Source: Eledone cirrhosa (Eukaryota). From it: a DNA stretch of 64,000 nt. The translations under genes and the position numbers were made by a program. Each line of letters begins with the position of its first letter. The first letter of the stretch is position 1. The notes beneath the pieces are model-generated. The model did no database searches. It saw only the letters and a list, made by a program, of their open reading frames with translations, and was not told the DNA's origin. The DNA lies in assembly GCA_964016885.1 (NCBI GenBank), contig OZ024742.1:97092001-97156000 (forward strand). The letters are read 5' to 3'. This document shows positions 5,641 through 45,956 of this stretch, piece by piece.

Positions 5641-6750
5641 ACATGAACATAGAAATGATGATGATGATGATGAGTCAGTGAATTTCCACAGATAATATGG
5701 CAAAAAATCAGTTAATTTGAATATTGAAAATAAATAACATTAGGATATATAAAGATAGGAAAACATGAGGCATTAGTCAAAGGTGACAGATTTAATGTGA
5801 AGGCTGTGTTTCTCTTGCCAGCAGGGAAAAGAGACATTAAATGATGAGGGTGGTGATGATGATAAGCTGTGTACTTGTTTGTATGAATCAATATGTAACA
5901 ATCCATCAATCAACATGTGAAAGATAAATGAAGACAGGAAGTTGGATTTGCCCCCTCAAAATATTTGTAAGTGATTTCTACTTTTGCAAGACCCTAGAAG
6001 AGAGGCTGATAACAAGAAAAATGTTGATTCTAATGCCTGGGTGTAGAAAGTAACCAGATGTTATCATTACTCTGCATTAATTTGTCAAATGGTGTTTGAC
6101 AACTGCTCTTCCAACTGGAAAGTCAATAAATTTTCTGGATTAATCTCATTTTACTTTTCCTTCTTCCAGCACCTGTGATTGATCCTGAAAAGGCCATCCT
6201 CTATTTAGATCTGGTCACAGAGAGACAAAAATATTAAATATAATTGCAACACTACCAACTACAGTGGGACTGGTCGTGAAAGAATTTCATGCTCCGGTAC
6301 TAAACGTTTAATTTGAAACTTTCCTCACCATATAGCTGATCATTTTCAAGGTCAGATATATATATTTGCACATTGGATGAGGCACAAAGTGAGATAAAAA
6401 TTTACATTCAAAATATTCATAATTGTTGTTTCATCGATGTAGGTTGGATGGTTAATTCACTTCTCAATCATGGTTCAAGCAAAATGTGTGGCATCTTCAG
6501 CAAGTGTCATTAGCATAGCTTCAAGTTAACCCAAATTTGGTGAGAGATAATTAGTAAAGTAAAACTGTTTGGAAGCCAATTAGAAGGATTGTATCTTTAA
6601 TGTAAATGTCCAGCCTTGACACATATTATCATATGCTAATTAACCTTGGGAATTTAATTAAAAGTACAAATAACTCTGGAATACACAACCACTTCCTTAA
6701 ACATTAATCAATGTTAAAGCTCAGCACCAAAACTAACGGAAGATCTATCA

Positions 6751-7823
6751 TCATTACATAACAATTAGCACTCTTCTGACAAGAAGTAGCAACATATATA
6801 TATATCATTACATAACAATTGGCACTCTTCTGACAAGAAGTAGCAACATATATATATATCATTACATAACAATTGGCACTCTTCTGACAAGAAGTAGCAA
6901 CATATATATATATCATTACATAACAATTGGCACTCTTCTGACAAGAAGTAGCAACATATATATATCATTACATAACAATTGACACTCTTCTGACAAGAAG
7001 TAGCAATATATATATATCATTACATAACAATTGGCACTCTTCTGACAAGAAGTAGCAATATATATATATCATTACATAACAATTGGCACTCTTCTGACAA
7101 GAAACAGCAACATATATATATATCATTACATAACAATTGACACTCTTCTGACAAGAAGTAGCAACATATATATATATCATTACATAACAATTGGCACTCT
7201 TCTGACAAGAAGTAGCAACATATATATATATATATCATTACATAACAATTGGCACTCTTCTGACAAGAAGTAGCAACATATATATATCATTACATAACAA
7301 TTGGCACTCTTCTGACAAGAAACAGCAACATATATATATATCATTACATAACAATTGACACTCTTCTGACAAGAAGTAGCAACATATATATATATCATTA
7401 CATAACAATTGGCACTCTTCTGACAAGAAGTAGCAACATATATATATATATCATTACATAACAATTGGCACTCTTCTGACAAGAAGTAGCAACATATATA
7501 TATCATTACATAACAATTGGCACTCTTCTGACAAGAAGTAGCAACATATATATATATCATTACATAACAATTGGCACTCTTCTGACAAGAAGTAGCAACA
7601 TATATATATATATATCATTACATAACAATTGGCACTCTTCTGACAAGAAGTAGCAACATATATATATCATTACATAACAATTGGCACTCTTCTGACAAGA
7701 AGTAGCAATATATATATATCATTACATAACAATTGGCACTCTTCTGACAAGAAGTAGCAACATATATATATCATTACATAACAATTGACACTCTTCTGAC
7801 AAGAAGTAGCAACATATATATAT
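6751..7823. repeat. Minisatellite, 20 copies of a ~54-bp unit (44-bp core + variable (TA)n)
   Basis: Core TCATTACATAACAATTGGCACTCTTCTGACAAGAAGTAGCAACA counted 20 times. Confidence 0.97.
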
Positions 7824-8026
7824 GGCATTAGGAAAGGCATGAAGCAGAAAAGAAGCCAAAATCAGTTCTGTGTTAGCAAAACATGCTCCTCAGTTCTGAT
7901 CTTTCACAAAAGAACAACGCATCCTACACATACTAGCATGGGAAATGGACATTAAGCAATGATGATGATGATATGTATATATATATATATATATACATAC
8001 ACTTACACATATATACAAACACACAT

Positions 8027-36077: not shown

Positions 36078-37620
36078 GTATCATCATCATTATCCTCATC
36101 ATCTTCGTTTAACGTCCATCTTCCATGCTGGCATGAGTTAGACGGGAGTTGTCCCACTTGAGGCAAGGTTGGTCGGGTGACTGTGTCTCGCTCATATAGG
36201 ACTATCTACGGCTGGATGCCCTTCCTAACACCAACCACATTTACAGTGTGGACTCGGAAATTGTTACCGTGTTACCTACACGGCCACATTACAGCGTGGA
36301 CTGTGTGTTTTTTGTCATGACACCTACACTATCGCGATCTCATTATCTCATTTATTTGTACTGGATGTTGTGGTACCAAGTTTACAGAGAGAGGGAGGTG
36401 TTGGTGGGAGTGGAAGGATAGAGTAGGGGTCGTGGATTGGGGTGTATATTTGGTTACGAGGTGTCTAATGACACTAGGTTTCACTTTGTACATAGGCAAG
36501 GTGGGTCTTCTGTATTACTGCGTAGCGCCAAAGATCTTGGTCCACTGACATTATGTTAGAGAGGTGCAAGTGTTTAAGGTCGGAATTTATCAAATCGTCC
36601 CAGGTTTTTCTGGGTCTACCTACTCTGTAACTTCCATCAATTTTGATAACCCTGCACTTTTTATACAGCTGTCGTCTTTCATGTGCATCACGTGACCATA
36701 CCAACGTAGTCTTCTCTCAAGTAAACAGTATCTGATCCTTCTTATTCCTAATTTTTCACTTAGTTCATTTATGCTTTGCCGTTCACATATATTACTATTA
36801 CACATCCAACAGAGCATGCATGCTTCATTCCTTTCTAGTCTGTGCAGGCCCTCTGCACGCAATGCCCATGTCTCACTGCCATGTAGCATTGCTGTTCCTA
36901 TACAGGCATCATACAATCTGCCTTTCATTTTTAGAGAGAAACCTATTGTGGCCAACGGCGGTATAAGCTCTCTGAACTATTTCCATCCTGTTCTGACTCT
37001 GGCTACTGTACTTTCAGAGCACCCTCCACCACTGCTGATTTTGTCACCCAGGTAACGGAAAGTGTCCACTATTTCTATAGAACCATCTTGGCAATAGAAG
37101 GAGCTAGTGTCCTGTGGGCACTAGTTACTTATTGCACCTGAGCATCGGCCGCATATAAAATCTACGTTCTTAGACAGTTTACCTGTGATCCCATTACATC
37201 TTTTATGTACCCATAGTTTGTATTTGGGACATAAAATGGAATTTCTACCTACTCCTTTCCTACAGTGAGCATGGCCATTTCCCTGAGGGCACCTGTGCTC
37301 TATTTTTCTTTCTACAAACTAGAACTTTAGTCTTAGACAAGTTAACTTTAATGACTTTTGATTCTAGGCCATGTTTGGAATTTCTTCTCTAGTTCAGTCA
37401 TAGATTCAGCTATGAGAGTTAGATCATTTGCGTATAGGAGTTCCCATGGGCAGCCAGTCTTAAACTCCTCTGTTATAGCCCGAAGGGCAATAATAAATAG
37501 GAGGAGGCTAAGGACAGAGCCATGATGAACACCAACTTTTACACTAAATTCTTCACTATATTCATTGTTAATTCTAACCTTACTGACTGTTTCTTTATAC
37601 ATGACTTGTATAGATAATGG
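36078..37620 (-). mobile_element. RTE LINE fragment (RT C-half, PHD-like finger, thumb, UTR)
   Basis: VGVHHGSVLS, WELLYANDL, LWVHKRC, MLHGSETW, GRPRKTW; close relative of 27745-28902. Confidence 0.92.
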
Positions 37621-37621
37621 A

Positions 37622-37877
37622 GCGTGGTTTTGTCTTTGCGTGTAATTGTTCTCCACGCTCCTTATAATGACGTATTATCTTCGTTTATTTTCGTTCTTTG
37701 TCATGGAACGCTTCCACGAACCAAAGTATCGTCTTCCTGTCTTCCTTCGGTTGCAACGTTTTTCGAAATATTTACTTCTGCGTTCACAGATTGCTTTTTT
37801 TTAGTTTCAGAGCATCCCCTTAAGGGTGGAAGCAGCGATTCTTTGCTTAAACTTTAATCTGTTATTTTAATAAATAA

Positions 37878-37882
<5 letters not shown>
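37622..37882 (+). mobile_element. Fragment of the CAGAAGA-hammerhead repeat family
   Basis: Co-linear with 56410-56640; degenerate HHR at ~37803-37853; ends in (TA)n. Confidence 0.75.
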
Positions 37883-37950
<68 letters not shown>

Positions 37951-37953
<3 letters not shown>

Positions 37954-38460
37954 CAACTCACATAATTTTCGGCAGACAGGGAGAGTAGTGAGTTTTGATA
38001 AGTACCAAAAAGTACGAAACAGAGCTGTGAACTTATCTCCCCCTGTCTGCCGAAAATTTAAGTAAGCGACAATGTCGCTACTTTAAAACAATTGCATATA
38101 GTCTTCAAAATATTTTTAATTAAGCATACAGTGTATTGCAAAATACACTATATATACATTCATATATAAATCGCTATTTCAGAGCACCAATTCTAATTAT
38201 CAATTTCTGCTGGGCCGGCGACCGCTTGTAAAATCAGTTCCCGATTGTTACTGGAATTCTATAAGAATCCAACACACATAATTTTCGGCAGATAGGGAGA
38301 GTAGTGAGTTTTGATACGTACCAAAAAGTACGAAACAGAGCTGTCAACTCATCTCCCCCTGTCTGCCGAAAACTTTAGTAAGCGACAATGTCGCTACTTT
38401 GAAACAATAGCGTATAATTACGCAAACAGTGTATTGCAAAATACACTATATATACATTCA
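37951..38460 (+). mobile_element. ~1.6 tandem copies of a 316-bp hammerhead repeat (sister family of the 310-bp array)
   Basis: GGCAGA recurs at 37971 and 38287; HHR motifs at 37989-38035 and 38305-38351; 38100-38243 is homologous to the 310-bp unit; (TA)n on both sides. Confidence 0.85.
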
Positions 38461-38484
38461 TATATATATATGTATATATATATA

Positions 38485-38535
<51 letters not shown>

Positions 38536-39189
38536 ATGTTGGTGTTACATAAGAATATAGTTGGCTTTTGACTTTTCTCTATGTATCTGTAAAAATTCCA
38601 ACTTATCCCAGCCATCCATAGGTTATTTCATTTCTACAGGTATTTATGTCCACACTTTGAAAATGTTCTGTATACATTATTATTCACTTATTTTTCCCAT
38701 TTTATATTTCAGCTATTTTCGAAATAAACCACATTGTATATTCTCTCCCCCCCCCCCTCTTTCTCCAACTCTCTACATATTTGAACTCTTCCCAATCAAT
38801 CTATCCTTTGGTCGGTGACTGTCTTCAAAATTCTCACACATTCGCCTTATCGAATATGCCTACTTGTATCTGCTTATTTTGCCCTGAATCTTAAACAACA
38901 ATATGCGCCATGATGGCTACCTATCTCACCATTCCCCTGCCGCCTTCCCACACACACCACCATAGACTCTTCGATCAATCAAACCACAGCAACATATCCT
39001 CACACATTATCTTCACCAACAAATTCTTCCATTTCTACTACCAAATTCTATTTTATCGTTATCTATGGATGAGCTGAAGAAGATAGAACAACCCGAATAG
39101 ATAAATGAATATGAATCCACGAGTTACCAAGCATCCATGTGAAGCTTTAATTTGGAGACAGAAAGCATACACACTCCCCCGCAAAAATT

Positions 39190-41672
39190 CCCCCTCTCCC
39201 ACCAGTGACGGCAAATGCCCAAAATTCCGAGTTGGCACCATCAATGTGAGCACAATGAAAAGAAGAGCAGGAGAAATCGTAGATATGTTAGAGCGAAAGG
39301 AAATTGATACATACTGTGTGAAAGAGACTAGATGGAGAGGAGAGTCTGTTAGAGTACTTGAAGGCAAAAATCAGTGATACAAACTTTTCTGGGTGGGAAA
39401 TGACAACGGTTTGGATGGTGTAGGTATACTATTAACTACCAAATTGGTAGATCAGCTGATCTCAGTGAACAGTGTGAATGCAAAAATCATTAAACTTAGA
39501 CTAATCCCGAATAAAATAGTTTCTACAATTATATCAGCTTACACACCCCAAGCTGGGTTGCCAGACGAACTTAAGGATAGGTTTTATGAGTCCTTAATGC
39601 ACGCTACTACCCTAACAAACAACAATGACTTCCTAATCATTGCAGGAGTCTTTAACGGCCATGTTGCAAAACACAGTGACAGCGTCTATAGAGTCCATGG
39701 AGGCCACGGGTTTGGCACAAGAAACGAAAAATGCTTCAGGCTTCTAGAATTCTGTGACGCCAATGACATGTCGATATGTAACACAAACTTCACAAATACC
39801 GACAACCACCTGATCAACCCTAGATCAGGGGAGCATTCTAGTCAGATACATTTTATCCTTATCAGAGGACGAGATAGATGGATGGTTGTAAACACAAACA
39901 CCTTCTCTGGTGAGGAATGTACCTGCGACCTCTTTGTCAGAACTAGAGGAACATGGAAACAAAAGGCAACTTGGAGAAGAAAGATCTGGTTGCTGAAAGA
40001 CTCCTCAGCCAGTAACAGATTTAAAGATATCTTACGCGACGCCTATGACAGTAAAGAAGAACAGGAGTTCCTAAAATATAACTTGCTAAAGGCGACTAAC
40101 GAGATCTGTTGTTGGAGAAGGAGAGTGACTTGGTGGAGGAACAAAAGGTAGCGAGGCAATTAAGGCTAAGAGACAGGCATGGAAATAATGGAAGAATGGG
40201 GGAAGCAGGGTACATTACATAGAGATCAGGAGGGAAGCTAGGCGATAAGTATACTTAGCTAGAAGGGAAGCAAGAATTTTTTGCAGCATGAGGACCACAA
40301 ATAGGAGGTGTTCAGAATTGCAAGGCAGTGTGTTAGAAAAAATTGTTATGTCATTGGAGAGAAGTTTGTCCGAGATGATAAAGGTGATCTTGCCCTCACA
40401 AGTCCCGAGAAGAAAGCTGCTTGGAAGAGTCATTATGAAAGATTACTGAATGAGGAGAATGCATGGGAGAAAAAGACTCTACACCAAGTGGGCTTTATAG
40501 AGGCCCAGTAATACAAGTCTGCAGCAGTATAGTAAGTAAAGCAATTAAGGATATGAAGACTGGGAAAGCAGTCTGTCCATCTGGTATAGCTGCCGAGATT
40601 CTGAAAGCATCTGGGTCGGTAGGTCACACCATAACCACACGTATTGTTAAAAAAGTAATACTAGTGGGCATCATACCAAATGATTGGCACAACAGCATCA
40701 TTGTCAACTGCTACAAGGGTAAAGGAGATGCACTAGATAGAGGAAAATATAGAGGTATAAAGCTGGTGGACCAGGTCATGAAAGTAACGGAAAGAGTTAT
40801 AGTACAGCTGATTAGGGACAGGGTAAATCTAGATGAGATGCAGCTTGGGTTAGTGCCAGGCAAAAGCACCACTGATGCTCTCTTTCTTGTGAGGCAGTTA
40901 CAGGAAAAGTACCTAGCTAAAAGTAAGCCACTCTACCTAGAATTTGTGGATCTGGAAAAAGCCTTCAACAGAGTGCCCCGTGCCATAATCTGGTGGGTTC
41001 AAAGAAAACTAGGAGTAGATGAATGGCTTGTGAAAGCAGTACAAGCCATGTACAGTTAGGGTTAACAATAAATATAGTGAGGAATTTAGAGTATATGTCA
41101 GTGTCCATCAGGGCTCTGTTCATAGCCCTTTCCTGTTTCTTATTGTAAACAGAGAAGTTTAAGACTGGATGCCCATGGGAACTTCTGTACGTGGATGATG
41201 TTACACTTATAGCTGAATCTATGGTAGAACTAGAGAAGAAATTCCAAATATGGAAGCAGGGGTCTCAAAGTCAACCTGACAAAGACTAGGGTCCTCATAA
41301 GTAGATGAGTAAACTGAATCCAGATCCCCTCAGAGAAACGACCTTGCTCAGTATGTAGGAAACGTGTCGGTAGAAATTCCATCCTCTGCCCCAAATGCAA
41401 ACTATGGGTATACAAGAGATGTGGTGAGATCTCAGGAATATTTGTTAAGAACGCAGCCTTTACATGTAGCAGTTGCACCAAGACAGTAAGCAGCAAACGG
41501 CCACAGGAAACACACACCACCAAATTCTGGGCGGGCTCTGTAGAGACAGTAGACAGCTTCTGCTACCTAGGTGACTGAATTAGCAGCGGAGGTGCATGTT
41601 CTGAAAGTACAGTAACTAGGGTAAGTATGGGATGGAAGAAGTTCAAGAAGATACCACCTTTACTAACTGCAG
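39190..41672 (+). mobile_element. Decayed RTE LINE: APE endonuclease, RT and PHD-like finger; 3'-truncated
   Basis: VGTINVSTM..VKETRWRG, ISAYTPQ, GVFNGHV (APE); YRGIKL, FVDLEKAFNRVP, ELLYVDD (RT); many stops and frameshifts. Confidence 0.93.
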
Positions 41673-42016: not shown

Positions 42017-42070
<54 letters not shown>

Positions 42071-42190
42071 TATAGACATAGAATATTCGAAAATATTCTG
42101 TATGTTTATAATAAACATTTTGAAGACCTAATCGCTATAGAATAGAATACGTCACGTATTACAATTAGATTCTCGATAAAAGCAAGGGAA

Positions 42191-42233
42191 GTAATCTACG
42201 CGTTTCATTCTAGTTAGAAATCATCAGGACTAC
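42191..42233 (-). ncRNA. Type I hammerhead ribozyme, first of 9 minus-strand copies spaced 310 bp
   Basis: Reverse complement of GTAGTC-CTGATGA-TTTCTAACTAGAAT-GAAA-CGCG-TA^GATTAC. Confidence 0.88.
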
Positions 42234-45066
42234 ATATCCAGTGCTTTTATCGAGAATGACACAGCTAGAGACTTATAGAATACTTAGCTGTGTACAGGAA
42301 CTGGTTTGAAAGAGCGGTTGCCGGTCCGGCAGAAATTAGAAATTGGAATAAATGCTCTGAAATAGCGATATATATGTGAATATAGACATAGAATATTCGA
42401 AAATATTCTGTATGTTTATAATAAACATTTTGAAGACCTAATCGCTATAGAATAGAATACGTCACGTATTACAATTAGATTCTCGATAAAAGCAAGGGAA
42501 GTAATCTACGCGTTTCATTCTAGTTAGAAATCATCAGGACTACATATCCAGTGCTTTTATCGAGAATGACACAGCTAGAGACTTATAGAATACTTAGCTG
42601 TGTACAGGAACTGGTTTGAAAGAGCGGTTGCCGGTCCGGCAGAAATTAGAAATTGGAATAAATGCTCTGAAATAGCGATATATATGTGAATATAGACATA
42701 GAATATTCGAAAATATTCTGTATGTTTATAATAAACATTTTGAAGACCTAATCGCTATAGAATAGAATACGTCACGTATTACAATTAGATTCTCGATAAA
42801 AGCAAGGGAAGTAATCTACGCGTTTCATTCTAGTTAGAAATCATCAGGACTACATATCCAGTGCTTTTATCGAGAATGACACAGCTAGAGACTTATAGAA
42901 TACTTAGCTGTGTACAGGAACTGGTTTGAAAGAGCGGTTGCCGGTCCGGCAGAAATTAGAAATTGGAATAAATGCTCTGAAATAGCGATATATATGTGAA
43001 TATAGACATAGAATATTCGAAAATATTCTGTATGTTTATAATAAACATTTTGAAGACCTAATCGCTATAGAATAGAATACGTCACGTATTACAATTAGAT
43101 TCTCGATAAAAGCAAGGGAAGTAATCTACGCGTTTCATTCTAGTTAGAAATCATCAGGACTACATATCCAGTGCTTTTATCGAGAATGACACAGCTAGAG
43201 ACTTATAGAATACTTAGCTGTGTACAGGAACTGGTTTGAAAGAGCGGTTGCCGGTCCGGCAGAAATTAGAAATTGGAATAAATGCTCTGAAATAGCGATA
43301 TATATGTGAATATAGACATAGAATATTCGAAAATATTCTGTATGTTTATAATAAACATTTTGAAGACCTAATCGCTATAGAATAGAATACGTCACGTATT
43401 ACAATTAGATTCTCGATAAAAGCAAGGGAAGTAATCTACGCGTTTCATTCTAGTTAGAAATCATCAGGACTACATATCCAGTGCTTTTATCGAGAATGAC
43501 ACAGCTAGAGACTTATAGAATACTTAGCTGTGTACAGGAACTGGTTTGAAAGAGCGGTTGCCGGTCCGGCAGAAATTAGAAATTGGAATAAATGCTCTGA
43601 AATAGCGATATATATGTGAATATAGACATAGAATATTCGAAAATATTCTGTATGTTTATAATAAACATTTTGAAGACCTAATCGCTATAGAATAGAATAC
43701 GTCACGTATTACAATTAGATTCTCGATAAAAGCAAGGGAAGTAATCTACGCGTTTCATTCTAGTTAGAAATCATCAGGACTACATATCCAGTGCTTTTAT
43801 CGAGAATGACACAGCTAGAGACTTATAGAATACTTAGCTGTGTACAGGAACTGGTTTGAAAGAGCGGTTGCCGGTCCGGCAGAAATTAGAAATTGGAATA
43901 AATGCTCTGAAATAGCGATATATATGTGAATATAGACATAGAATATTCGAAAATATTCTGTATGTTTATAATAAACATTTTGAAGACCTAATCGCTATAG
44001 AATAGAATACGTCACGTATTACAATTAGATTCTCGATAAAAGCAAGGGAAGTAATCTACGCGTTTCATTCTAGTTAGAAATCATCAGGACTACATATCCA
44101 GTGCTTTTATCGAGAATGACACAGCTAGAGACTTATAGAATACTTAGCTGTGTACAGGAACTGGTTTGAAAGAGCGGTTGCCGGTCCGGCAGAAATTAGA
44201 AATTGGAATAAATGCTCTGAAATAGCGATATATATGTGAATATAGACATAGAATATTCGAAAATATTCTGTATGTTTATAATAAACATTTTGAAGACCTA
44301 ATCGCTATAGAATAGAATACGTCACGTATTACAATTAGATTCTCGATAAAAGCAAGGGAAGTAATCTACGCGTTTCATTCTAGTTAGAAATCATCAGGAC
44401 TACATATCCAGTGCTTTTATCGAGAATGACACAGCTAGAGACTTATAGAATACTTAGCTGTGTACAGGAACTGGTTTGAAAGAGCGGTTGCCGGTCCGGC
44501 AGAAATTAGAAATTGGAATAAATGCTCTGAAATAGCGATATATATGTGAATATAGACATAGAATATTCGAAAATATTCTGTATGTTTATAATAAACATTT
44601 TGAAGACCTAATCGCTATAGAATAGAATACGTCACGTATTACAATTAGATTCTCGATAAAAGCAAGGGAAGTAATCTACGCGTTTTATTCTAGTTAGAAA
44701 TCATCAGGACTACATATCCAGTGCTTTTATCGAGAATGACACAGCTAGAGACTTATATAGTCCTGATGATTTCTAACTAGAATGAAACGCGTAGATTACT
44801 TCCCTTGCTTTTATCGAGAATCTAATTGTAATACGTGACGTATTCTATTCTATAGCGATTAGGTCTTCAAAATGTTTATTATAAACATACAGAATATTTT
44901 CGAATATTCTATGTCTATATTCACATATATATCGCTATTTCAGAGCATTTATTCCAATTTCTAATTTCTGCCGGACCGGCAACCGCTCTTTCAAACCAGT
45001 TCCTGTACACAGCTAAGTATTCTATAAGTCTCTAGCTGTGTCATTCTCGATAAAAGCACTGGATAT

Positions 45067-45109
45067 GTAGTCCTGATGATTTCTAACTAGAATGAAACGC
45101 GTAGATTAC
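45067..45109 (+). ncRNA. Type I hammerhead ribozyme, one of 4 plus-strand copies (44758, 45067, 45377, 45687)
   Basis: Helix I GTAGTC/GATTAC, core CTGATGA and GAAA, helix II TTCT-AACT-AGAA, palindromic helix III ACGCGT; predicted cleavage after GUA at 45103. Confidence 0.88.
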
Positions 45110-45882
45110 TTCCCTTGCTTTTATCGAGAATCTAATTGTAATACGTGACGTATTCTATTCTATAGCGATTAGGTCTTCAAAATGTTTATTATAAACATAC
45201 AGAATATTTTCGAATATTCTATGTCTACATTCACATATATATCGCTATTTCAGAGCATTTATTCCAATTTCTAATTTCTGCCGGACCGGCAACCGCTCTT
45301 TCAAACCAGTTCCTGTACACAGCTAAGTATTCTATAAGTCTCTAGCTGTGTCATTCTCGATAAAAGCACTGGATATGTAGTCCTGATGATTTCTAACTAG
45401 AATGAAACGCGTAGATTACTTCCCTTGCTTTTATCGAGAATCTAATTGTAATACGTGACGTATTCTATTCTATAGCGATTAGGTCTTCAAAATGTTTATT
45501 ATAAACATACAGAATATTTTCGAATATTCTATGTCTATATTCACATATATATCGCTATTTCAGAGCATTTATTCCAATTTCTAATTTCTGCCGGACCGGC
45601 AACCGCTCTTTCAAACCAGTTCCTGTACACAGCTAAGTATTCTATAAGTCTCTAGCTGTGTCATTCTCGATAAAAGCACTGGATATGTAGTCCTGATGAT
45701 TTCTAACTAGAATGAAACGCGTAGATTACTTCCCTTGCTTTTATCGAGAATCTAATTGTAATACGTGACGTATTCTATTCTATAGCGATTAGGTCTTCAA
45801 AATGTTTATTATAAACATACAGAATATTTTCGAATATTCTATGTCTATATTCACATATATATCGCTATTTCAGAGCATTTAT

Positions 45883-45956
<74 letters not shown>

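What the first reader, a model, noticed from the sequence alone, without database searches (positions are those of the whole stretch)
37951..38460. Sister 316-bp family shows RNA-level selection: compensatory stems and a UUCG-to-GCAA tetraloop swap
Seen: 38100-38243 aligns with the 310-bp unit. The hairpin AGAATATT-TTCG-AATATTCT has become AGTGTATT-GCAA-AATACACT, which is two paired substitutions plus one stable tetraloop replaced by another. The ribozyme half differs in sequence but keeps the layout: an 18-bp stem AATTTTCGGCAGACAGGG/CCCTGTCTGCCGAAAATT enclosing the HHR, followed by a small hairpin AGCGAC-AAT-GTCGCT. Inference: these are diverged lineages of one structured RNA replicon, possibly with a swapped ribozyme module.
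Basis: partly seen in the sequence, partly recalled or inferred. Interest (0 to 1): 0.85.

Follow-up and report, generated by a model that had tools for sequence, protein, structure and literature searches.

The report
Retrozyme lineage flipping its catalytic pair
This is a decayed copy of a protein-free repeat with a hammerhead RNA motif predicted to cut itself, likely pasted into AT microsatellites by a Penelope-type retrotransposon; across six related families in this animal genome the RNA stems, and one base pair of the ribozyme's core, have changed on both sides together more than once, which likely records selection on the RNA's fold and chemistry.

Summary
Observation confirmed. The 316-bp unit aligns to the 310-bp unit (score 129; 2,000 shuffles reach at most 35), and the hairpins and the 18-bp stem are where stated. 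Both belong to one lineage of at least six subfamilies of non-coding type I hammerhead repeats (non-LTR retrozymes). They carry Penelope-type footprints: (AT)n targets, head-to-head arms, and one short plus one long 3' end in 32 of 36 pairs. Selection on plus-strand structure is well supported: 30 of 47 stem changes between subfamilies are two-sided, against 3 of 95 within families. The tetraloop swap is not supported (GCCA and ACCA loops also spread), and a whole-module swap is not needed. 310-bp arrays carry one haplotype across both arms, which suggests rolling-circle copying of one circle. There are no RNA data, cutting is untested, and the partner element was not identified. Natural U3-A8 and retrozymes are published. 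The scan noted the two-armed pattern before, on other DNA. Verdict: new member of a known kind.

The parts
37870..37950 (.). (AT)n microsatellite, left flank (target)
   Evidence: sequence
37951..38266 (+). Unit 1 of the 316-bp repeat (subfamily A); no ORF of its own beyond short chance frames
37964..38058 (+). Outer 18-bp stem (37964-37981 with 38041-38058) enclosing the hammerhead
   Evidence: 7 of 11 counted pairs change on both sides across subfamilies
37989..38035 (+). Type I hammerhead motif, copy 1: stem I 37989-37994/38030-38035, core UUGAUAA 37995-38001 (U3 at 37995, A8 at 38000), stem II 38002-38005/38012-38015, GAAA 38016-38019, stem III to 38028, G at position 17 (38029; family has C)
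   Evidence: sequence
38065..38079 (+). Small hairpin after the outer stem
38110..38127 (+). Second conserved 6-bp hairpin (one pair U-A to C-G between subfamilies); damaged in this copy
38130..38149 (+). 8-bp hairpin with GCAA loop, about 20 nt upstream of the short 3' end; likely part of the signal bound by the reverse transcriptase (inferred)
38172..38197 (+). 26-nt 'tail' between the short and the long 3' end of the family
38267..38469 (+). Partial unit 2 (unit positions 1-221, 18-nt deletion), ends at the short 3' end
38305..38351 (+). Hammerhead motif, copy 2: core UUGAUAC (A9 changed to C at 38317), GUC site 38343-38345
38428..38447 (+). 8-bp GCAA hairpin, copy 2
38447..38533 (.). (AT)n microsatellite, right flank
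42058..44757 (-). Sister 310-bp family, minus arm, 8.7 units, short 3' end at (AT)n; C3-G8 hammerhead with 2-bp palindromic stem III
44754..45888 (+). Sister 310-bp family, plus arm, 3.7 units, long 3' end at (AT)n

Best explanation
The stretch is a 1.7-unit, decayed insertion of a protein-free hammerhead repeat (a non-LTR retrozyme) that was likely copied into an AT microsatellite by the reverse transcriptase-endonuclease of a Penelope-like element, and whose parent RNAs were likely selected for both fold and ribozyme chemistry. Shown: six subfamilies on a ladder-like tree; two-sided stem changes between subfamilies but not within; the core pair C3-G8/U3-A8 switching at least twice; (AT)n targets; head-to-head arms with one short and one long 3' end; one haplotype per 310-bp array. 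Inferred: tandem copies are transcribed, cut by the hammerhead into ~316-nt monomers and ligated to circles; the enzyme binds the conserved 3' hairpins, nicks both strands of (AT)n, starts cDNA at the two ends of the 26-nt tail and runs round the circle, giving tandem arms joined at their 5' ends. Only copies whose RNA still folds and cuts found the next subfamily; genomic copies such as this one then decay.
For: Covariation: 93.3% of 1,908 cells paired, 23 of 46 pairs with two-sided change, slid controls 31-43% paired. Between neighbouring subfamily consensuses 30 two-sided kept, 11 one-sided kept, 6 broken of 47 changes; partner-permuted null mean 8.5, max 18 in 10,000; copies against their own consensus 3/31/61 of 95; G-U 7, A-C 0 in 259 consensus cells. 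At least 26 two-sided changes in 20 pairs by parsimony. Core: 1,552 scaffold sites = 1,123 U3-A8 + 392 C3-G8 + 37 mixed by subtraction; 2 changes on the tree built without those columns, single origin rejected, p-AU 0.0009. Penelope footprints: 32 of 36 inverted pairs have one long and one short end (binomial 1e-6), 148 of 159 ends next to AT repeats; this matches the tail and two start sites of PMC11167929 and PMC8557442. RT plus GIY-YIG elements with the same layout exist in the genome, three families of them with U3-A8 hammerheads. Circle: 35 loci of the 310 family hold 12 haplotypes, each fixed in its array and in both arms in 17 of 17 two-armed loci with a fixed variant, arms up to 14.5 units; 5' ends do not gather at the cleavage site (2 of 165 arms).
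Against: No RNA evidence was obtained and cutting was not tested. No element with an ORF sharing the 3' module was found in 46 GIY-YIG loci (of 150 scored, 10,596 candidates), so the partner is unidentified. The hammerhead-competent fold is 0.7-7.4 kcal/mol above the predicted minimum in all six consensuses, 4.6 for this family. Cell counts are not independent events, and the neighbour comparison counts some changes twice; the core switch rests on two events. The structure was drawn from these same sequences. A long homogeneous linear transcript could also give homogeneous arrays; one locus (L258) has 2 of 17 units of another haplotype; 25 of the 35 loci were picked by similarity to the window unit. 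In vitro, a Penelope-like element inserted without hammerhead cleavage (PMC11167929). Arms in the 316 clade are short (median about 1 unit, max 3.4).
Confidence: 0.83

Rival explanations
1. The paired changes come from DNA-level or reverse-transcription template switching that perfects inverted repeats, without selection on an RNA fold.
For: Most counted helices are simple local hairpins in AT-rich DNA; the elements show frequent strand switches at their 5' junctions.
Against: The 3-8 core pair is a single tertiary pair, not an inverted repeat, and still covaries; G-U 7 vs A-C 0 points to one strand; copies decaying in the genome show 3 two-sided changes of 95.
Confidence: 0.05
2. The units are orphan pseudo-LTRs copied from linear, uncut multimer transcripts; arrays grow at the DNA level and the hammerhead is kept only as a folded binding site, not as a catalyst.
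For: Cleavage was dispensable for insertion in vitro (PMC11167929); 8 of 9 Xenopus dimers did not cut (bioRxiv 10.64898/2026.07.22.740005); 5' ends ignore the cleavage site; no RNA seen here.
Against: All six consensuses keep the full core, GAAA and GUH; haplotypes are fixed across both inverted arms of very young arrays whose outer ends are the two start sites (28 of 31 two-armed loci by my count), which needs a one-unit bottleneck and re-multiplication at insertion.
Confidence: 0.12
3. One reading: an RNA replicon that also copies itself RNA-to-RNA, with a ribozyme module exchanged between lineages.
For: Fast turnover of the ribozyme half; 8 of 17 distinct array-fixed variants of the 310 family fall in 36 of 310 nt around the hammerhead; the 310 core plus stem II match another short AT-targeted element at 26 of 28 columns. 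RNA-to-RNA steps were raised as a possibility in PMC4209133.
Against: No minus-strand hammerhead was found in the 310 array; retrotransposition explains all the ends; the outer stems of 310 and subfamily E are plainly homologous; about 11 of the 26 matching letters are the conserved core.
Confidence: 0.07

Closest known systems
Metazoan non-LTR retrozymes (Cervera and de la Pena 2020, PMC7229834; Li, Clavereau and Pollet 2026, bioRxiv 10.64898/2026.07.22.740005)
   Same: Tandem non-coding units of 150-450 bp, low GC, one type I hammerhead per unit, highly paired monomer, dispersed, co-occurring with Penelope-like elements.
   Different: Three of six subfamilies have a U3-A8 core, which a CUGANGA descriptor would miss; strict two-armed insertions with one short and one long end; expression, cutting and circles untested here.
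Penelope-like element pseudo-LTRs and their tail (Frangieh 2024, PMC11167929; Craig 2021, PMC8557442; Arkhipova 2013, PMC3846280)
   Same: Head-to-head inverted arms, optional tail at one end, two 3' ends, AT-rich or (TA)n targets, hammerhead upstream of the 3' end.
   Different: No ORF; tail is 26 nt rather than 30-40; arms are multimers of the unit; no homologous coding parent found.
U3-A8 hammerheads (Perreault 2011, PMC3088659; Schistosoma Cercyon minimal hammerheads, about 1,300 hits, PMC4209133)
   Same: Same compensated core pair; reported active in vitro by citation in PMC3088659.
   Different: Here it sits in a hammerhead with a 3-4 bp stem III inside a tandem repeat, and the pair switches at least twice inside one traceable lineage, each state amplified to hundreds of copies or more.

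Membership tests
Type I hammerhead ribozyme | Core C3/U3-U-G-A-N-G8/A8-A, GAAA, UH, with three stems and open stem I | tested here: met
   All six consensuses; stems covary. The two window copies each carry one core defect (G17; C9).
Type I hammerhead ribozyme | Match to an Rfam hammerhead model at gathering score | tested here: not met
   No hit at gathering; HH9 only at E 0.02-0.29.
Type I hammerhead ribozyme | Self-cleavage at the predicted site | not testable with these tools
   Needs an in vitro assay.
Non-LTR retrozyme | Tandem non-coding repeats of 150-450 bp with one type I hammerhead per unit, no LTR | tested here: met
Non-LTR retrozyme | Dispersed multi-copy family | tested here: met
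   24,403 hairpin-pattern hits, control 0; 1,552 scaffold hits.
Non-LTR retrozyme | Expressed as linear and circular monomer RNA | not testable with these tools
   No run on record as RNA was listed.
Non-LTR retrozyme | Target-site duplication longer than 4 bp, when present | tested here: inconclusive
   Flanks are AT microsatellites, so a duplication cannot be read.
Non-autonomous derivative of Penelope-like elements | Inverted 5'-joined arms and a tail at one end only | tested here: met
   32 of 36 pairs; 310 arrays. The window's 316 insertion itself is one-armed.
Non-autonomous derivative of Penelope-like elements | RT plus GIY-YIG elements present in the same genome | tested here: met
   L151 938 aa and L154 636 aa with RVT_1 and GIY-YIG (RVT_1 just under the curated cut-off); L151 has a Cx4CxxC linker as described for the Neptune and Nematis clades.
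Non-autonomous derivative of Penelope-like elements | Sequence homology to the pseudo-LTR of a coding element | tested here: inconclusive
   None in 46 GIY-YIG loci of 150 scored and 10,596 candidates; the sample is small.
Autonomous Penelope-like element | ORF with RT and GIY-YIG | tested here: not met
   No such ORF at the locus.
Viroid-like RNA replicon | RNA-to-RNA replication, minus-strand intermediates | not testable with these tools
   No RNA reads; no antisense hammerhead in the 310 array.

The most novel reading that the evidence does not exclude
These families are the genomic fossil record of a self-perpetuating lineage of small circular RNAs in an animal. Selection acts on the circle's ribozyme, whose catalytic base pair has flipped between C3-G8 and U3-A8 repeatedly, and part of the evolution happens in extra rounds of RNA-templated copying outside the chromosome, making it a viroid-like endogenous replicon that uses a Penelope enzyme as a rolling-circle replicase.
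Probability: 0.1. Interest if true: 0.82.

Novelty: new member of a known kind. Interest (0 to 1): 0.5.

Why it matters
Whether the hammerhead matters for Penelope-type mobility is open: cleavage was dispensable in the one in vitro system (PMC11167929), most tested Xenopus dimers did not cut (bioRxiv 10.64898/2026.07.22.740005), and its function has been called unclear (PMC8557442). Here a single lineage keeps the one-pair tertiary contact of the active site through at least two double substitutions, with only 37 of 1,552 sites mixed. That is natural evidence that the active fold is selected in the copies that go on to multiply, and it offers six ready ribozyme variants for a test. It also means searches with the standard core undercount retrozymes (at least 1,123 sites here). 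The one-haplotype, two-armed arrays give a direct test of rolling-circle reverse transcription. Each ingredient is published separately, so the gain is evidence and testability, not a new kind of element.

Tried and rejected
Tetraloop swap: rejected by the loop census in 161 copies. Whole ribozyme-module swap: not needed. Rfam: only chance microRNA hits on AT repeats and weak HH9. Coding function: no meaningful ORF. Search for the coding parent: BLAST of both units against 46 GIY-YIG loci found only inserted copies; five pseudo-LTR regions against the two 3' modules gave no score above the shuffled maxima; a guessed pattern 'tail followed by ATG' gave 35 hits that read as ordinary copy variants in the listing, and their 10 loci were not examined further. 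5' ends at the cleavage site: 2 of 165 arms, no clustering. Expression: no RNA holder listed; two runs of unrecorded kind (X1, X2; contigs, one sample) hold many variants of the repeat but say nothing on RNA. Rows dropped: of 170 extracted segments 9 were left out (junction or wrong-strand artefacts, and two copies with broken 5' arms), leaving 161; the tree and pair counts use 42 of these, the 7 per subfamily nearest their consensus from distinct fetched loci (for the 310 family several of these overlap the same arrays); the 310 consensus was left out of stem I, stem III and the first small hairpin because its alignment there is unreliable. Literature: 'cephalopod' + 'retrozyme' listed one paper, on other Penelope clades; 'hammerhead' + 'octopus' listed nothing on this; 'U3-A8' was found only in PMC4209133; 'U3A8/G3C8' nothing. 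The kinetic paper on 3-8 exchanges (PMC1986816) is not held. The supplement of PMC7229834 could not be read, one of PMC4209133 was not searched and bioRxiv supplements are closed; any of them may list related repeats or core variants.

Full report
Observation. The window holds 1.7 copies of a 316-bp unit (37951-38469, + strand) between two AT microsatellites. Its 3' half aligns to the 310-bp array at 42058-45888 with score 129, against a maximum of 35 in 2,000 dinucleotide shuffles and 40 in 585 real window stretches. The hairpin change, the 18-bp stem and the small hairpin are as described. The enclosed motif is a type I hammerhead, but its core reads UUGAUAA, that is U3-A8 in place of C3-G8. 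Copy 1 has G at the cleavage position and copy 2 has C at position 9; most of the 65 relatives listed from 30 loci have neither defect. G17 lowers but need not abolish activity (PMC3884650, passages). Rfam does not recognise the motif at its cut-off.

Family. The genome (G000, 3.0 Gb; an animal, octopus-like by my impression, not tested) holds 24,403 matches to the shared hairpin pattern, control 0. The 316 family is older (best hits 87-96% identical), the 310 family very young (99-100%). From loci fetched I extracted 170 segments, dropped 9, and grouped 161 into six subfamilies: 310, E, D, C, B and A, the window's. A maximum-likelihood tree of 42 copies, built without the two core columns, is a ladder 310 | (E, (D, (C, (A, B)))) with starred support on the main branches, though E, D and C are not each resolved as one clade.

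Selection on the RNA. On the named structure 93.3% of 1,908 cells pair and 23 of 46 pairs change on both sides; slid controls pair 31-43%. Because related rows inflate such counts, I compared subfamily consensuses. Of 47 stem changes between neighbours, 30 are two-sided and paired, 11 one-sided and paired, 6 break a pair; permuting partners gives a mean of 8.5 co-changes, maximum 18 in 10,000. Copies against their own consensus give 3, 31 and 61 of 95, that is plain decay. G-U occurs 7 times and A-C never in 259 consensus cells, which points to the plus strand (p 0.008). Parsimony gives at least 26 two-sided changes in 20 pairs. RNAalifold independently finds the outer stem and three hairpins, with a covariation term of -4.9, but not the hammerhead's inner stems. 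The strongest single case is the catalytic pair: C-G in 310, D and C; U-A in E, B and A; two changes at least; one origin of U-A rejected (p-AU 0.0009). Genome-wide, on the scaffold shared by A, B and C, 1,123 sites are U3-A8, 392 C3-G8 and 37 mixed, of 1,552; these copies descend from few masters, so the count shows fixation, not many events. Against my reading: the active fold is 0.7-7.4 kcal/mol above the predicted minimum in every consensus, and the structure was drawn from these sequences.

What fails. The loop of the 8-bp hairpin is TTCG in 310 (19 of 19), GCCA in E (16 of 25) and D (10 of 13), ACCA, GCAA or GCCA in C (10, 8, 3 of 24) and GCAA in A (50 of 59) and B (20 of 21). GCAA arose late by one base from GCCA, and loops outside the GNRA and UNCG classes spread as well; the stem is what is kept. 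The ribozyme half of 310 aligns to the others above shuffled level (0.58-0.64 vs 0.51-0.52) and this half is the faster one in all 15 pairs, for example C vs A 0.79 against 0.97, so no wholesale swap is needed. A 26-of-28 match of the 310 core and stem II to another short AT-targeted element leaves a local exchange or shared ancestry open.

Mechanism. Copies end at two fixed places 26 nt apart; 148 of 159 ends abut AT repeats, and 32 of 36 head-to-head pairs have one short and one long end (1e-6; one of the exceptions looks like a misclassified long end). This is the tail described for Penelope-like elements (PMC3846280 and PMC8557442, passages) and traced to two internal start sites of reverse transcription (PMC11167929, parts 1-2 of 4). 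Coding RT plus GIY-YIG elements with the same layout are present; L151 has the cysteine linker described for Neptune and Nematis, and the L151, L157 and L145 families carry U3-A8 hammerheads while L154 carries C3-G8. None of 46 such loci shares the 3' module, so the partner is unknown. In 35 loci of the 310 family there are 12 haplotypes, 7 of them seen once; each is fixed along its array and in both arms in 17 of 17 informative loci; arms reach 14.5 units; 28 of 31 two-armed loci end at the two start sites (counts by hand; 25 loci were chosen by similarity to the window unit, 9 by position; L258 mixes two haplotypes). The simplest reading is that both nicked strands prime on one circular monomer. 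5' ends do not gather at the cleavage site (2 of 165), so the template was not a linear cut monomer. Transcription, cutting, ligation and the enzyme are all inferred; no RNA run was listed.

Comparison. It works like, and meets the sequence-level definition of, the metazoan non-LTR retrozymes (PMC7229834, parts 2-4 of 6), whose Penelope origin was argued from vertebrates (bioRxiv 10.64898/2026.07.22.740005, parts 1-3 of 5). Natural U3-A8 is known (PMC3088659, passages) and was reported in about 1,300 Schistosoma minimal hammerheads, with circle-templated more-than-unit copying proposed there (PMC4209133, parts 1-2 of 4). My searches found no report of repeated switching of this pair within one retrozyme lineage; an octopus repeat annotation does not use the words ribozyme or hammerhead (PMC13282606, passages). 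PMC7151607 (passages) added only the core consensus. Unread supplements may bear on this. Earlier notes of this scan describe the two-armed 310 family and similar elements elsewhere; I saw them after my own tests and they agree.

Verdict. A real feature, well supported as structure selected on the RNA strand, in a new member of a known kind. Interest 0.5.

Noticed in passing
window 37816-37870: The 316 insertion sits in the AT tail of a different short element ending ...TCTGTTATTTTAAT; the same end flanks L030 and appears inverted in L161, so several AT-targeted families nest in each other's tails.
   Followed up: no
L151 (G000:C1:145868500-145877500), L160, L152, L156, L159, L164: A young (96-98% identical) coding Penelope-like family with a 938-aa open frame, a U3-A8 minimal hammerhead with palindromic stem III in its pseudo-LTR, inverted 5' arms and a tail of about 66 nt. 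Candidate source of enzyme for the 310 family, untested.
   Followed up: partly
L157:2580 region, L134, L163: A coding family whose hammerhead-like motif has U3-A8 and GCAA in place of GAAA in three loci; possibly a further core variant or a dead ribozyme.
   Followed up: no
L160:6995-7205, L163:4620-4826, L156:179-323: A short AT-targeted, two-armed element whose hammerhead shares stem II with the 310 family and the start of stem III with the 316 clade but has a different 3' end.
   Followed up: partly
L242-L275 (310 arrays): 8 of 17 distinct array-fixed variants lie in 36 nt around the hammerhead (loop II, positions 7 and 10.1, next to the cleavage site); tolerance, tuning or hot spot is unresolved.
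   Followed up: partly
window 42058-45888 vs 37951-38469: The 310 hammerhead has a 2-bp palindromic stem III (dimer type) and arms up to 14.5 units; the 316 clade has a 3-4 bp stem III and arms of at most 3.4 units. A circle that cannot cut as a monomer may allow longer rolling-circle runs; age is a rival cause.
   Followed up: partly
L161:6720-8001: An unrelated ~500-bp tandem repeat with a C3-G8 hammerhead and an internal AT tract.
   Followed up: no
window 36500-37660 (-) and 39080-40000 (+): Decayed LINE-like reverse transcriptase and endonuclease fragments flank the locus (read from the sequence; not classified).
   Followed up: no
window 6750-7830: A 52-54-bp tandem array, 20 copies, 93% matches, each unit ending in an AT tract.
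   Followed up: no
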